DNA from: Girardia tigrina
Lineage: Eukaryota
DNA: 54,552 nucleotides
Direction of reading: 5' to 3'
Assembly (NCBI GenBank): GCA_001938485.1
Contig: MQRK01250726.1
Span: forward strand, 1 to 54,552
Numbering within the stretch: the stretch's first letter is position 1; every line of letters starts with the position of its first letter. Below are positions 24,401 through 33,400 of this stretch, piece after piece. The position numbers are program-made.

Positions 24401-27400
24401 TCAGGACAAACAAAAATTTCCATGGTTACAGGTCGCATTTTTAACAGCATTTATGTCATGCTTTCCTTTTCTCGTTTTCGGCACTTCATAAAAGAATTTT
24501 ATCAAGTTAGACCTTTCTAGTAAAGAAAATTGCAGCAATTAACACAAATTAGAAACACATTATTTTGGAAGAAAAAGTCATGGTAATATGTAAACATTAT
24601 TTCGGAACAGAGGGAGTATTATATATTTGAAATCCCTAATAAAAAGTGAATTAGGTAAAATAGCATTTGCGATCTACTTATGTCCAAAAATTTTCATTTT
24701 CTGTTCTAAATGAATTTTCGTTTAATAAAATAATAGTATTTTCGTAAATTTCGCACTTTTTCATCATCCTAATGGACTTTAATCGCTCTGATATTCGTAA
24801 ATTAATTTACTATTTCTGGAAAAGGGATTTAACACCCTCACAGATGACTGACGAAATTAACACGGCCCTTTCCCAAATTAACAGTCTCAAAGAGAACATG
24901 TGAAAGGTGGATTTCCAAGTTTCGTGAAAACAACTTTAGCACAGACGATCAAGTCCGCGAATGGCGGCCCTCTCTTGACATAGACGAGAAGATAATCAAG
25001 TTTCTGACTGAGGACAAGCGTGCAACAACGAGGAACATTAAAGAGAGAATTGATCAGGAAAAAACCACGGTGTGCCGGCATTTAAATGCAATGGGATACC
25101 GATACCTGGAAAATTGCTGGGTGCCACACGCTCAGACGCAACAGAACAAGGATAATCGCAAAAGAATTTGTCAACAGCTATTGGATATTTATAATCGGAA
25201 TGATTTCCTGTCCCAAATCATCAGCTGCGATGAGATATTGGTGTACTGGGACAACGAAGGCGCTTTCAATAATAGATCATGGAGAAAACCGGATGAAAAC
25301 CCACTTGCAACACCGGCACGAAAACTGACAATCCGAAAGCATCTCGCCTTTGGCACAGTAAAGGAGTGTTGTTGTTAGATGTCTTACCTCTAAATGCTAC
25401 AATCAATGCGGATGTCTACTGTACTCAGTTGGATCGTCTCATTATCGCCGTACGGCTGCTAAGACCAAGGACAAGCTGAATGCGCTTGCATTCACCGTAC
25501 TACCACATCCACCATACTCCCCGATCTCTCACTATCTGAGATCTATCTATTCTCTCCAATGAAATGTGCACTTAGAGGAAAGAATTATGCCAGTGTCAAC
25601 AATATCAACGAAGATCTTCTACATTGGTTTGACTAGAAACCGCCTGATTTTTTCCAAAATGGGATACTCAGCCTCCATGGACGTTGGCTGAGATGTATTG
25701 AGCACAATGGCGACTACTTTTCGCATTTACATGACGTGGACGATTGATAAAATATTTTATATTTTATTGTATTTTGGTGTTTTTACGGCAAAACTTATGA
25801 GGCAACCCTATATTATAATTATCAATATAATTGACAAATATATGGTATCTATAAACCGAAATGGGGATATATTTCAGATCAATTTTGAAACAAATGGATG
25901 ACAAATTCAATGATACTGAAATTGTTTCACATAAAATAGCGTGTGAAAAGAAACTGTTAGTTTGAAATTTCAATTGCTTCTTGAAATTCTAAATGAACGA
26001 ACTTTCAAAGATTCAACTAACCCAACATTACCAATTAATATAATCAATAATTAACCTTCTCCAAGTTATTAAAGTAAACAGAATACCAAGAAGAACATAT
26101 CCTACGTTTGAAATGATGTTATTGAAAGCGGTGAAAATATAAATCGGTCTTGTGCACCGAAAATTGTAATAGCATATATCCTGATTGCCAGTTGTATCAA
26201 CAGTCTTAACATGACAATCATTAACACAGTAACTATGATAATAGAGACAACTTGTTGAAAGTTAATAACCAATTGTACAACTGGTAAAGAGTAGAACACA
26301 GATATTATTATCAAATACCTGAAAATAGTAAAAATATGTTTATATATTCAATCAAATCCACAATGAAATACCACAAATATAAAAAGTATTTCCGGTCTAC
26401 AATTTCTGACTTCTTCTTACTTAAATCTGAAACAAACACTGTTGTCTGAAATAAATAAAAACATCTTACGTATTTCATTTGTACATAAAAATGTAAAAAT
26501 ATTTTTAAATAAACAATTTTTAGTTCATTCAATATAATTAGATTCGAATTCAATAATAATAATTTGTGTGAATGTTACATATCGAGATTCGATAAATGTC
26601 AACATTGAAAACAAAATACCTAACATGAATTTATGGTAGATATAAATATACACTGTACATGTCGGCTTTAACGTGAAATGTCTCTAAATTCAATACACAT
26701 TTAATATAGATACATGAATCTGAAAATTCGGATAACAAAGATTATATGCAAAGTCTAGGTACAAATAGTGTCAGCTTATATGCTATATACACTAGACGGG
26801 CACAAAGGGCCTCATTGAGTAGAGGTGGGCACGTTTAGCGTTTAAACGACCGTTTAAATGTTTTCTATTTTTAAGACGTTTAAACGTTTAGCGATTTATA
26901 AACGACCGTATAGTTCTTAAGTTCGTATTTCAAAACTCACAATATTGGTTATACTTTTTTGAAACTTTTATCATGCTACATAAGGGCTATTCATTTGTCA
27001 AGAACACATTGTCCCAATCTATTGAGCTTTTTCATGGGACTATAAATACAAAGTAAGAAAAGTGACATTAATATCATATTTGAGAATTGCATCAAAATTT
27101 TTGGTAAATTTTTTGTTAGGGTAAAATTATTTAAATTATAATTGTTGATTTTCTAAATTTTTTCGAGTAAAAAAGTTTTAAAAACAAGATGTATTGAAAA
27201 GGTATTGCTTTTTGATGAAGCACAAAATTTAAATTTTTTTCATTGGAATAATTAGCTAAACAGTTATTATGATTGGTTTTATGTATATAAAAATATGTAT
27301 GTAGTGTTTTGACATTAAAAATTTTTTAAATTAAAAATTCTACTTTAATAAAATAAATTCATTTGAATGAAATAAGTACAAAAAGTAATTGCAGTTATAA

Positions 27401-30400: not shown

Positions 30401-33400
30401 TTATTAATTATATTACAATATATAATTTTTAATGTTTGATTAATATTATTATAACTAATTTATATTAAATATTCAAAATTTATGTTGTGTAATTTAAAAA
30501 AATTATTAGTACAAATATTTCTGTTTTTTGAACACATTAATTCAAAAGAAATATGTACATAACAAAAACAGATATCTAATTTATCATCTTTAAAATGGCA
30601 CAATTTAGAAAGCAAATCATGGAATTTTAGATGATTTAATAAACACTTATAATAATAATTTGTCTGTAATAAGCACTATATTTGGACATGGGTTATATAA
30701 AAATATATTCCACCTCCTTTAATGCATTTAATTTTCTCCTTTCTGTCGGTTTATTTGTACAAAAGTACAATAACCGTATTGAAAGGAGATTCAACAATTT
30801 TAAATCGTGAATTAATGTTTAAATGTTCATTTAAACAATTTTCTTATTATTTTTAAATAATTTAATTTCAATAATTAAATTTTATAAATATAATACATCT
30901 ATTTATTTTTCAAAATAGTTTAGTTTTTTTCTCACAAGTGATTTTATGAAAATGAAAATAACTTTGAAATTACTTTCTTAAAAATGAATAGCAGAAATTT
31001 TTTTTCTTTTGAAAATAAAAATATTATATGTGATTGTTTTTTAAACATCTTACAATCAAGTATTTTTAATATACTATCAAATACAAGTTTAGATTTTATA
31101 ATTTAACTCTAAATATAGATTCTTCGAGTATTAATTATAGACATATTTAGACAAAATATCAATTCCAGTAAATTATTTATCTTAAATTTTCAAATAACGA
31201 ATATTTATTTACTGCGTTTTATGTACCTTAGCTCATTTAGTCTGATATACAGTAATTATTTGCCGCAATTTTTATAGCCTGTGACATGAAATTTTGCAAA
31301 CTTATTCATTTAACCATATATTTAAATACTAATTTATCAATACATTTATCAATTAAAAAATTATATAAGCTCCAGATTATTGAGGAATATAATCACAATA
31401 AACAAAATCTTTAAAAAATCAATTGATTATTCGTGTTAAACTACCATTTCATCAAGTACACATGCGTAGATATTTTTTTAAAAAATATTAAATATAATTT
31501 TTTTGATCATTAACCACAGAATCCGTTAGCGACATCAAATATCAATTTTATTATATTTAATCACCCTCATTTGACGAAATTTCAAATTTATTATTCAATT
31601 TGTTGTATTATAAATTATCGCAGTGGTTCCCAACCTTTTTGTACTGCCGCCCCCTTTTAAAAAATTGTTTATTCATTTTTTGTGACACCTATTCGATTTT
31701 TTTAGTTGTATTCGAAAATTATATTTTGGAAACAGCTATATGCCCCCCTTGCAACAGTCTCGTGCCCCCTGGGGGAGCGCTTCACAGGTAGGAAACCACT
31801 ACATTAGTTTATCACCACTTCATACAACAGCAAACAATTAAATTATTACGTGAATAGTACCGAATAAAAAAAATAATGTACAGTGACTTGCAGTTAACAG
31901 CAAATTATTGTCGGTCAAGTTGCTACATATTAGAATTGTGATTCTTTCTTTCGACATTTTCCAACCAATGCATTTGTCTTCTTTGAATTTGAATAACAGA
32001 TATATGGTGAAGATCTTCATGACTTCAATCGAAAAATACGAAACAAGACCAAATGAAGGAAACTCTAGGCAAGGAATGTTTACAGATATAGACAGGCCTA
32101 TGACAAAGACCAGGAAAACGAGAATACATGATCAGAAGGAGAGGTGATCAGTGTCCTTCATTAAAAAGTAAAAAATGTTGGTGTATGTGATTGTGTGTGT
32201 GTAATGATTGAGTGTTTGAAGATACCACTATCGCAGTTTGCGAATTAGATTGTTGGAAAGAAGTATATGATACATACTGTTTTAATAAAGAAACGTTTAA
32301 TTTGCTAAACGAAGACCGTTTAAAAGTTTAAAAATTATAAAAGTGCCCACGTCTATCAATGAAATTAGAGATCGTTTAAACGTTTTTTAAACGTTTAATT
32401 TGCTAAACGAAGACCGTTTAAACGTTTAGAAAATTTTAAAACGTGCCCACGTCTATCATTGAGTAACGGAGACCTCAAAATTTAAATCAATCTTTTTTGG
32501 ATTGTTTATTGATTTTTTCGAAAATATAAATCAACCCTTGTAACACACAAACTATTTTCAACACACTGTTTAATTGATAATATTTAAACAAAATATTTAT
32601 CAAAAAAGCCTATATTAAATATTTTAAATAATCAAAATATCTAATATCCAACACTCCCACAATATTCGTCCACAGAAGAATCTGAATCCACAATGTAATC
32701 ATTTAGATAAGACGGTCTTCGTCTTTCTCTACTAGGCCTACTGTTCAATGATTGTTCCTCTTGTGTTTGATTGTCTGGTAGTGATGCAGTTTCCTCCATA
32801 TTTATATAGTATGACTTGGAATTTTCAACCAAGTCAGGCTGTCTAGGTCTAATGTCTGCAAAATGTCTTGGACCGCAAAATCCGTTGCAATTTACTAGAT
32901 ATTTCCTTTGATCTATTCTTTTCACGACAACACCCTTGGCCCATTGCTGTGTACATGGTGTACTGTTTTCCGGTTTTACCCATACTAATTGATTCTCAAT
33001 ATAATCGGGATTTCCACAAAACGGTTCCTTTTCACTTCTTCCAATTATATCTAACCCTATGGGTAAATAGCTATAGAGCGCCGAGATTGGTGTTTCTTTT
33101 CCTTCAGATAGCGTGTTATTATACCACCATAAAGCTTCCAATATGCTGATATTTGATCTGGACGCAATTCTTTTGCTTGTTCTGTGATTCCTTTCTATTA
33201 TTCCGTTGCGGGTAGGTCGATTGATGGCACGATACATGACTCGAACGTTCCACTTTTCCTTTAACTTGTTGAATTCTACCGAATGGAATGTGGTATATTT
33301 ATCGATAATTAGTTCCTTGAGAGACCCGCGTTCGCAGAACAAACTTGAGAATTCTGAGACAATTGATTTGACGTCTTCAGCCTTAATTAATTTCCAAATG

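What the first reader, a model, noticed from the sequence alone, without database searches (positions are those of the whole stretch)
26812..32463. Pack-type hAT transposon carrying a captured SNIP1 (FHA) gene inside a sid-1 intron
Seen: matching 17-bp TIRs and a perfect 8-bp TSD (TCATTGAG) bound a 5.6 kb unit. It holds a BED-finger transposase remnant on + and an intronless SNIP1/Pml1-like FHA coding region on -. Known: 8-bp TSDs and BED fingers are typical of hATs; gene capture by TIR elements is well described in plants (Pack-MULEs) and much less in animals; SNIP1 is a RES-complex splicing factor. Inference: either the element moved with host-gene cargo, or a retrocopy landed in it afterwards. 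The cargo is decayed while the TSD is perfect, which hints that the cargo predates this insertion and may be amplified genome-wide.
[Added by the scan's program, not by the reader: the finding's places include an assembly gap (unread letters, written N; its length is only estimated) at 29568 to 29719. Whether the letters on both sides are continuous or in frame is not known: test that first.]
Basis: partly seen in the sequence, partly recalled or inferred. Interest (0 to 1): 0.8.

Follow-up and report, generated by a model that had tools for sequence, protein, structure and literature searches.

The report
Decayed hAT-like transposon holding SNIP1 pseudogene
A dead cut-and-paste transposon sitting in an intron of a sid-1-like gene contains a broken, intron-free copy of part of the splicing-factor gene SNIP1; this is an ordinary kind of genomic debris, and whether the transposon ever carried the gene copy around cannot be decided from this window.

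Summary
The sequence facts hold. A 17-nt terminal inverted repeat (16 of 17) sits at 26820-26836 and 32439-32455, flanked by a perfect 8-bp duplication TCATTGAG (chance about 5-8e-5). CGTTTAAA motifs cluster under both ends. Together these are the anatomy of a hAT-type element, 5,636 bp including a 152-N gap.

Inside, on the minus strand, 28019-28633 is one uninterrupted block of SNIP1 homology (human SNIP1 E=3e-19; 151 of 151 homologues give one HSP in one frame). It has two in-frame stops and no frameshift.

No tool confirms the BED finger, and no transposase domain is left.

Capture mode is open. A 32-nt direct repeat (28 of 32) brackets a 1.0-kb segment holding the cargo, and its upper copy abuts the 5' limit of homology. 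This fits a 5'-truncated processed retrocopy, but real-sequence controls make it only suggestive, and there is no clean poly(A).

One other copy of the same diverged sequence exists (P0001, 84-86% identical). Its context could not be reached.

Co-mobilisation is untested. Pack-type TIR elements in animals are already described (PMC8277862). Interest is low.

The parts
26812..26819 (.). Left target-site duplication TCATTGAG
   Evidence: Identical to 32456-32463. Chance of identity about 5-8e-5. With the preceding C it forms a near-palindrome, CTCATTGAG.
26820..26836 (+). Left terminal inverted repeat, 17 nt, starting TAGAG
   Evidence: 3 matches in the window at up to 3 mismatches, 0.06 expected. 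16 of 17 complementary to the right TIR.
26837..26910 (.). Left subterminal region with repeated CGTTTAAA(CG) motifs
   Evidence: 5 of the window's 13 CGTTTAAA matches lie at 26839-26886. Window-wide expectation is 6.09, and 0 of 100 shuffles reach 13.
27575..27606 (.). Lower copy of a 32-nt direct repeat bracketing the cargo segment (candidate cargo-specific TSD)
   Evidence: D12, 88%; best direct repeat of 26837-29567, score 20; 0 of 60 Markov shuffles reach it; the 19-nt core is exact only at these two places; 3 of 18 other real windows reach a score of 20 or more, so this is suggestive only.
28019..28633 (-). SNIP1-derived pseudogene fragment covering the conserved C-terminal part with the FHA domain. 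It is 5'-truncated, uninterrupted, with two in-frame stops and no frameshift
   Evidence: GC 0.335 against 0.238 for the whole element. 35-48% identical to orthologues and 84-86% to P0001.
28623..28654 (.). Upper copy of the 32-nt direct repeat. It abuts, and overlaps by about 10 nt, the 5' limit of SNIP1 homology
29096..29554 (+). Unconfirmed
   Evidence: No hit. Weak Atlas lead. Motif halves lie in two frames.
29568..29719 (.). Assembly gap, 152 N, length only estimated
   Evidence: Followed by (AT)13.5 at 29720-29746. Not filled.
31610..31812 (.). Small MITE-like nested unit with 15-27-nt inverted ends (AGTGGTTYCCWACCT)
   Evidence: 2 matches, 0.13 expected.
32291..32362 (.). Internal duplicate of the right terminus: subterminal region, a TIR copy at 32339-32355, and a 7-nt flank TCAATGA
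   Evidence: 74 nt, 93% identity to 32389-32462..
32363..32438 (.). Right subterminal region with CGTTTAAA(CG) motifs
   Evidence: 6 of the 13 window matches lie at 32317-32424.
32439..32455 (-). Right terminal inverted repeat, 17 nt
32456..32463 (.). Right target-site duplication TCATTGAG

Best explanation
A non-autonomous, decayed hAT-superfamily-like cut-and-paste transposon is present. It measures 5,636 bp TIR to TIR in the assembly, including a 152-N gap. It inserted once into intronic sequence of a sid-1-like gene and duplicated the 8-bp target TCATTGAG. This much is shown by the anatomy.

No recognisable transposase is left in it.

Its interior holds a 615-bp SNIP1-derived pseudogene fragment on the same strand as sid-1. 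I infer that this fragment most likely began as a 5'-truncated processed (intron-free) retrocopy that landed inside the element, either in this copy or in a progenitor copy. I think this more likely than a DNA-level 'Pack' transduplication.

Nothing in the unit appears functional today. Whether the SNIP1 piece ever moved together with the TIRs is open.
For: hAT-type anatomy:
- 8-bp perfect TSD and 17-nt TIRs, 16 of 17, beginning TAGAG/TAGAC.
- 11 of the window's 13 CGTTTAAA motifs lie within about 140 bp of the two ends.
- This matches the published features: short TIRs, 8-bp TSDs, and subterminal repeats bound by the BED domain (passages of PMC4316626; PMC10368747).

Non-autonomous and decayed:
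- 0 of 96 ORFs in the unit match any transposase domain.

SNIP1 pseudogene:
-.

Retrocopy leaning:
- Homology is one uninterrupted block in all 151 comparisons.
- It starts inside the protein (human residue about 212 of 396).
- The best direct repeat of the left interior (28 of 32, core 18 of 19) brackets a 1,016-bp segment containing it. The upper copy sits exactly at the 5' limit of homology.
- Reverse-transcriptase-bearing elements are present in the same window (44513-45406, RVT_1 E=1.6e-34).

Single insertion across the gap:
- TSD/TIR pairing and collinear sid-1 exons.
Against: - No transposase homology ties the unit to hAT. The BED reading failed every test, so superfamily assignment rests on TIR and TSD anatomy alone.
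- The TSD fits the Ac/Hermes nTnnnnAn preference at position 7 only.
- The cargo-flanking repeat is not rare for real AT-rich sequence: 3 of 18 other 2,731-bp windows have a direct repeat scoring 20 or more. At 32 nt it is also long for a retroposition TSD.
- No clean poly(A) lies beside the lower copy. The most A-rich 40-mer on the cargo strand (27826-27865, 70%) is not adjacent to it and barely exceeds other windows at 68%.
- The parental SNIP1 gene was not available, so 'intron-free' could simply reflect one large parental exon.
- A second copy with shared derived residues (P0001) is what a multicopy Pack element would also produce.
Confidence: 0.5

Rival explanations
1. Pack-type hAT. A non-autonomous hAT acquired a SNIP1 fragment at the DNA level, by gap filling or template switching during repair or replication, and then transposed with it. 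This locus would be one of several copies carrying the same cargo.
For: - The cargo lies wholly between the TIRs, and the TSD is perfect.
- A second copy of the same already-diverged SNIP1 sequence exists elsewhere: P0001, 84-86% identity, on one 1,092-bp contig.
- 13 of 20 departures from conserved orthologue residues are shared by the two copies.
- Pack-TIRs, including a multicopy Pack-hAT, are documented in animals (PMC8277862, abstract and passages).
Against: - No second copy with TIRs was seen anywhere.
- P0001 has no accessible context. It could be an orthologous locus in a relative, a segmental duplicate, or another retrocopy of a divergent parental gene.
- The cargo is intron-free and 5'-truncated with a candidate flanking repeat of its own. 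The cited survey discarded intronless captures of multi-exon parents as retroduplicates (Methods passage).
- By that paper's abstract, single-copy animal Pack-TIRs mostly arise without transposition.
Confidence: 0.27
2. In-situ secondary insertion. The hAT-like element inserted into the sid-1 intron empty, and the SNIP1 retrocopy landed in it later at this locus, so the two never moved together.
For: - Candidate cargo-specific direct repeat and 5' truncation.
- The interior also took other nested insertions, such as the MITE-like unit at 31610-31812. The element has therefore been a passive target.
Against: - The window copy has few private changes (3 of 48 conserved columns) against 13 shared with P0001. 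This means the cargo sequence was already diverged when the two copies split. An in-situ retrocopy then requires a divergent expressed parent or an orthologous P0001.
- The repeat is only suggestive.
Confidence: 0.18
3. Not one element. The two ends belong to different insertions, or were brought together by scaffolding across the N gap, and the SNIP1 block merely lies between them.
For: - The gap at 29568-29719 separates the two TIRs, and its content is unknown.
- A second right-end copy exists at 32291-32362, showing that ends of this family can occur without a partner.
Against: - Identical 8-bp flanks next to oppositely oriented TIRs have a chance of about 5-8e-5.
- sid-1 exons are collinear across the gap.
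Confidence: 0.04
4. The SNIP1-like frame is a living gene, either a divergent paralogue or a domesticated cargo, expressed from within the sid-1 intron.
For: A 152-codon ATG-started frame exists. It is on the same strand as sid-1. Its GC content is higher than its surroundings.
Against: - Two in-frame stops fall within the conserved domain region.
- The start codon is formed at the junction with the flanking repeat.
- The N-terminal half is missing.
- The only close relative is a 77-aa fragment.
Confidence: 0.01

Closest known systems
Non-autonomous hAT-superfamily elements (Ac/Ds, hobo, Hermes, Tol2 type)
   Same: 8-bp TSD; short TIR of 17 nt, the same length as Hermes; TIR starting TAGAG, which fits the YARNG pattern I recall for hAT ends (recalled, from no call); short repeats clustered in both subterminal regions (passages of PMC10368747 and PMC4316626).
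   Different: No transposase domain is detectable. The BED finger is unconfirmed. The TSD matches the nTnnnnAn preference at only one of the two positions. No relative of this TIR was found in the window or in the searched collections.
Pack-TIR elements of animals (Tan et al. 2021, PMC8277862), e.g. the multicopy Pack-hAT-N8_XT of frogs and the ARF6 retrogene inside MER20 in humans
   Same: Host-gene-derived sequence enclosed by the TIRs of a non-autonomous DNA transposon, located in a host gene intron in the same orientation as the host gene. The ARF6/MER20 case is described there as possibly a retroposition event rather than capture, which is the same ambiguity as here (passage).
   Different: No parental copy was identified here, the copy number is unknown, and the cargo is intron-free. 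That survey's filters removed intronless captures of multi-exon parents. The paper's supplementary lists were not available, so I cannot say whether a SNIP1 case is already listed.
Processed pseudogenes (LINE-mediated retrocopies) nested in older repeats
   Same: Intron-free, 5'-truncated, decayed coding block with a candidate flanking direct repeat. Reverse-transcriptase elements are present in the same window.
   Different: No clear poly(A) tail. The 32-nt repeat is long (its well-matched core is 19 nt) and statistically only suggestive.
SNIP1 / DDL / Pml1 family (FHA subunit of the RES splicing complex)
   Same: Sequence homology over the conserved region and FHA domain. RES-complex membership of Snip1 is taken from the abstract of PMC6047831 in the listing.
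   Different: This copy lacks the N-terminal half and has two stops. It is 35-48% identical to orthologues, and several otherwise conserved FHA-region residues are replaced. It is a pseudogene, not a family member in function.

Membership tests
hAT superfamily DNA transposon | 8-bp target-site duplication | tested here: met
   TCATTGAG on both sides, 8 of 8. Feature as stated in PMC4316626.
hAT superfamily DNA transposon | Short terminal inverted repeats (5-27 bp) | tested here: met
   17 nt, 16 of 17.
hAT superfamily DNA transposon | Transposase with BED zinc finger (PF02892) | tested here: not met
   No Pfam hit at E<=1, no PDB hit, no protein hit. Only an Atlas lead below threshold. A non-autonomous copy need not keep it.
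hAT superfamily DNA transposon | Transposase catalytic core and C-terminal hAT dimerisation domain (PF05699) | tested here: not met
   0 of 96 ORFs of 28 aa or more in the unit. Atlas found nothing for 31887-32144(+). Part of the interior is hidden in the 152-N gap.
hAT superfamily DNA transposon | Subterminal short repeats in both ends | tested here: met
   11 of 13 CGTTTAAA matches in the window lie in the two subterminal regions.
hAT superfamily DNA transposon | Target preference nTnnnnAn (Ac and Hermes groups) | tested here: inconclusive
   TCATTGAG has A at position 7 but C at position 2. Some hAT groups show no such preference (PMC4316626 passage).
Pack-TIR (transduplicating TIR element) | Host-derived sequence between the TIRs of a non-autonomous element | tested here: met
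   SNIP1 block 28019-28633 lies inside 26820-32455.
Pack-TIR (transduplicating TIR element) | Identified parental locus not associated with the TE, and a capture that is not a retroduplicate | not testable with these tools
   The host genome is not in any open collection. The cargo is intron-free, and the cited survey excluded such captures when the parent is multi-exonic.
Pack-TIR (transduplicating TIR element) | Several copies with the same cargo and different TSDs (co-mobilisation) | not testable with these tools
Processed pseudogene (retrocopy) | Lack of introns relative to the parent | tested here: inconclusive
   Uninterrupted homology, but the parental exon structure is unknown.
Processed pseudogene (retrocopy) | Flanking target-site duplication of its own | tested here: inconclusive
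   32-nt repeat, 28 of 32. 0 of 60 shuffles reach its score, but 3 of 18 real windows do.
Processed pseudogene (retrocopy) | 3' poly(A) tract | tested here: not met
   No A run of 9 or more in the unit. Only mildly A-rich stretches, none abutting the lower repeat cleanly.
SNIP1/Pml1 FHA family | Significant homology over the FHA domain and the upstream conserved region | tested here: met
   E=3e-19 to human SNIP1. 739 library proteins at E<=1e-3.
SNIP1/Pml1 FHA family | Intact open reading frame | tested here: not met
   Two in-frame stops; N-terminal part absent.

The most novel reading that the evidence does not exclude
The unit is one member of a multicopy Pack-hAT family of an AT-rich invertebrate genome. 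On this reading the family picked up a SNIP1-derived sequence, possibly first as a retrocopy, and has since spread it by transposition. P0001 would be another transposed copy. Antisense or intronic transcription of such copies could feed small-RNA pathways against a core splicing factor, and this copy sits in a gene of the dsRNA-uptake family.
Probability: 0.2. Interest if true: 0.45.

Novelty: new member of a known kind. Interest (0 to 1): 0.2.

Why it matters
If the SNIP1 block proved to travel with the TIRs, it would add an invertebrate example to the few multicopy Pack-TIR families known in animals. It would also be a case where retroposition and DNA transposition acted in series on one host gene. 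As the evidence stands, this is a dead transposon with a dead gene fragment inside an intron. Its practical use is for annotation: mask it as a repeat and do not call the FHA frame a gene. It says nothing new about mechanism.

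Tried and rejected
BED finger
- Pfam at E<=1, NCBIfam, PDB at E<=10, the protein search for longer proteins (0 hits among 212 candidates) and the Atlas all failed to support it.

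Transposase C-terminus near the right end
- The GC-richer stretch 31841-32144 has no Pfam hit. The Atlas found nothing for 31887-32144(+).

Other family copies
- Self-blast of the unit against the window found only its own internal repeats.
- The pattern of TIR plus subterminal motif gave 0 hits in genome contigs.
- The cargo protein in genome contigs gave only three bacterial FHA loci, L001-L003 (38-64% identity over 22-51 residues). I judged them irrelevant and did not use them.
- The TIR 13-mers occur in 7 papers, none about transposons judging by title and abstract.

hAT split of a retroelement LTR
- The flanks 26348-26811 and 32464-33000 share nothing meaningful with each other or with the rest of the window. 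Rejected.

TSD as an outward extension of the TIR
- The outer flanks are direct, not inverted. The alternative pairing with the inner right end leaves no TSD. Rejected.

RNA genes in the unit
- Rfam at E<=0.1 gave 0, and there are no tRNAs.

Names and accessions for P0001 and the best SNIP1 hits

FHA near and shorter searches
- These added only P0151 (46% identity) and P0001.

Full report
1. WHAT IS IN THE SEQUENCE

The window is AT-rich (A 0.358, T 0.346) and dense with transposon remains.

At the coordinates given, the 8-mer TCATTGAG occurs at 26812-26819 and 32456-32463. Directly inside these lie TAGAGGTGGGCACGTTT (26820-26836, +) and TAGACGTGGGCACGTTT (32439-32455, -). This is a 17-nt inverted repeat with one mismatch.

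- The TIR pattern has 3 matches in the window at up to 3 mismatches, against 0.06 expected. The third match (32339-32355) belongs to an internal duplicate of the right end.
- The 8-mer alone is not rare (4 matches, 2.57 expected).
- Two specified 8-mers being identical has a chance of about 5e-5 by composition. Empirically it was 652 of 7,913,161 pairs at spacings of 3-9 kb, about 8e-5.
- CGTTTAAA, usually as the palindrome CGTTTAAACG, occurs 13 times in the window, and 11 of those lie within about 140 bp of the two ends (6.09 expected; 0 of 100 shuffles reach 13).

The TIR/TSD observation is real and not chance.

2. THE GAP

The gap at 29568-29719 is 152 N. A second gap lies at 16190-16239.

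- No homology-supported frame reaches the gap. The BED-like frame closes with a stop before it, and the right edge is an (AT)13.5 microsatellite, a typical place for an assembly break.
- Two indirect facts place both sides in one locus and one insertion event. The perfect TSD pairs TIRs that lie on opposite sides of the gap. SID-1 exon hits on the minus strand are collinear across it.
- Those exon hits, with Pfam profile positions, are: 47510-47656 (38-67), 47356-47568 (66-103), 26105-26347 (216-242), 26031-26261 (239-293), 22266-22466 (341-404) and 8656-8859 (449-501).
- These exons were searched one open frame at a time. I left out the joined-exon model.
- No SID-1 hit lies between 26348 and 47355 (frames of 28-30 aa or more only). 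The unit is therefore in intronic sequence as far as can be told.

3. THE CARGO

- The frame 28169-28639(-) carries an FHA domain (PF00498, E=9.9e-9).
- It matches human SNIP1 in spliceosome structures at E=3e-19, residues 212-349 of 396. Plant DDL follows at 2.4e-11 and yeast Pml1 at about 9e-6.
- In the 1.84-billion-protein library, 739 proteins match at E<=1e-3.
- tblastn of 151 of these proteins against the window gives exactly one HSP each. All are on the minus strand and in one frame, with outer bounds 28019-28633. There is no intron-like interruption and no frameshift.
- The frame contains two in-frame stops.
- Homology begins inside the protein, so the N-terminal half is not represented. 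That half is low-complexity and poorly conserved among homologues, so its absence by homology alone is soft evidence.
- The ATG of the listed 152-codon ORF is formed at the junction with the flanking repeat described in section 6. It is not an inherited start.
- Identity to orthologues is 35-48%.

4. A SECOND COPY

One protein, P0001, is 84-86% identical over 75 residues. It is 77 aa long, its source is listed as jgi, and it comes from a single contig of 1,092 bp.

I compared the two copies over 48 alignment columns where at least 6 of 8 orthologues agree:

| State at the column | Columns |
|---|---|
| Both copies keep the orthologue residue | 28 |
| Both share the same derived residue | 13 |
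| Both differ from orthologues, with different residues | 3 |
| Only the window copy differs | 3 |
| Only P0001 differs | 1 |

Most of the divergence from SNIP1 therefore predates the split of the two copies.

This is compatible with four scenarios: amplification of an already diverged cargo; two retrocopies of a divergent parental gene; an orthologous locus in a related species; or a segmental duplicate. P0001's DNA context could not be reached.

I had first read the replaced FHA loop residues as proof of pre-split decay. However, natural homologues in the alignment also vary at those positions, so I do not rely on that.

5. THE 'BED-FINGER TRANSPOSASE REMNANT'

The frame 29096-29554(+) has:

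- no Pfam hit at E<=1;
- no NCBIfam hit;
- no relevant PDB hit at E<=10;
- no protein hit among longer proteins (0 hits among 212 candidates);
- only a sub-threshold Atlas neighbour, rank 3, score 0.88, in which 12% of members carry zf-BED.

The motif pieces that suggested a BED finger lie in two reading frames.

No hAT catalytic or dimerisation domain is found in any of 96 frames of 28 aa or more across the unit. For the frame 31887-32144(+) near the right end, the Atlas found nothing.

The unit is therefore non-autonomous, or decayed past recognition. Its hAT assignment rests on end anatomy: short TIRs, an 8-bp TSD and subterminal repeats. These are the published features of the superfamily (passages of PMC4316626, and PMC10368747; Hermes likewise has 17-bp TIRs). 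The fit of TAGAG to a YARNG terminal pattern is recalled, not taken from a call.

6. HOW THE CARGO GOT THERE

The best direct repeat in the left interior (26837-29567) is a 32-nt pair, 27575-27606 and 28623-28654. It matches 28 of 32, and its 19-nt core matches 18 of 19. That core occurs exactly only at these two places in the window.

The pair brackets a 1,016-bp segment (27607-28622) containing the SNIP1 block plus about 410 nt on its 3' side. The upper copy abuts the 5' limit of SNIP1 homology.

Controls gave mixed results:

- 0 of 60 first-order Markov shuffles reach its score (20; maximum 18).
- 3 of 18 other real 2,731-bp windows do reach 20 or more. Two of these hold evident duplications.

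Score alone is therefore weak. The position is what makes the repeat suggestive, and that judgement is post hoc.

No clean poly(A) adjoins the lower copy. The longest A or T run in the unit is 8. The most A-rich 40-mer on the cargo strand (27826-27865, 70%) lies about 155 nt 3' of the block and hardly exceeds other windows at 68%.

Taken together, four features lean towards a processed retrocopy nested in the element: the cargo is intron-free, it is 5'-truncated, it has a candidate TSD of its own, and reverse-transcriptase elements lie nearby (RVT_1 E=1.6e-34 at 44513-45406). They do not prove it. They also do not say whether the retrocopy entered this copy in place or a progenitor that later transposed.

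7. COMPARISON WITH WHAT IS KNOWN

Tan et al. 2021 (PMC8277862; I read the abstract, outline and searched passages; supplements closed) report the following:

- 370 Pack-TIRs in 100 animal genomes, mostly single-copy and formed without transposition;
- a few multicopy cases, such as Pack-hAT-N8_XT;
- a human case (ARF6 in MER20) that may be retroposition rather than capture.

Their pipeline discarded intronless captures of multi-exon parents. The present unit belongs to this known territory. A search for SNIP1 together with 'transposon' and 'hAT' returned 17 papers; none of the 10 listed concerns such an element, judging by title and abstract.

8. VERDICT

- The 'Pack-type capture' reading is possible but untested, and it is slightly disfavoured against a nested retrocopy.
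- The locus is a dead repeat with a dead gene fragment.
- Interest is low (0.2). It is a new member of a known kind.

9. SURROUNDINGS, DESCRIBED ONLY

Directly to the right of the unit, on the minus strand, lies a pol-like fragment of a retroelement.

- RNase H at 33697-34245 (RVT_3, E=1.3e-8).
- A 309-codon frame at 32644-33570 with only weak integrase-core likeness (PDB E 0.09-0.3; IS481 DDE 7.4e-5).
- No LTR pair and no relation to the unit's flanks was found.

I did nothing beyond scanning these frames as they stand. Nothing in the window was taken for human.

Noticed in passing
window 32291-32362 versus 32389-32462: The right terminus is present twice. A 74-nt duplicate (93% identity) includes a TIR copy (32339-32355) and a 7-nt flank, TCAATGA. 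That flank is the exact reverse complement of the TSD core TCATTGA, or equivalently a direct copy with one mismatch. The target CTCATTGAG is itself a near-palindrome. The origin is unexplained; it could be a local duplication across the junction or a second partial end.
   Followed up: partly
window 31610-31812: Small GC-richer MITE-like unit nested in the element, with inverted ends AGTGGTTCCCAACCT / AGTGGTTTCCTACCT (2 matches, 0.13 expected). No clear TSD.
   Followed up: partly
window 30202-30318 and 30917-31039: 125-nt direct repeat at 78% identity, about 715 nt apart, in the very AT-rich right interior, with neighbouring weaker repeats and a 39-nt tandem array at 30041-30166. Possibly an old local duplication.
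   Followed up: no
window 32644-34245 (-): Retroelement pol-like fragment immediately right of the unit: RNase H (RVT_3, E=1.3e-8) and a frame with weak integrase-core likeness. No LTRs identified. Described only.
   Followed up: partly
window 35474-36105 and 20476-21077: A 642-nt dispersed repeat, 82% identical, in inverted orientation in two different sid-1 introns. Family unknown.
   Followed up: no
window 2176-2907, 24848-25476, 42120-43089; 5324-6352: Three mariner-like remnants (HTH_48 and Transposase_1 hits split over frames) and one Tc1-like remnant (HTH_Tnp_Tc3_2, DDE_3). All look broken.
   Followed up: no
window 43866-46627 (+): Non-LTR-type reverse transcriptase (RVT_1, E=1.6e-34 at 44513-45406) followed by a C2H2 finger hit (46080-46319). 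This is the GC-richest part of the window.
   Followed up: no
window 7799-8263 (-) and 53061-53264 (+): A GIY-YIG nuclease hit (E=1.1e-4, at threshold), of the kind that occurs in Penelope-like elements (recalled). Also a MULE transposase-domain hit (E=2.7e-7).
   Followed up: no
window 16190-16239: A second assembly gap (50 N) inside another sid-1 intron.
   Followed up: no
window 8656-47656 (-): The sid-1-like gene spans at least 39 kb here, with exon hits far apart. Pfam profile positions 103-216 were not located, so one or more weakly conserved exons remain unplaced between 26348 and 47355.
   Followed up: partly
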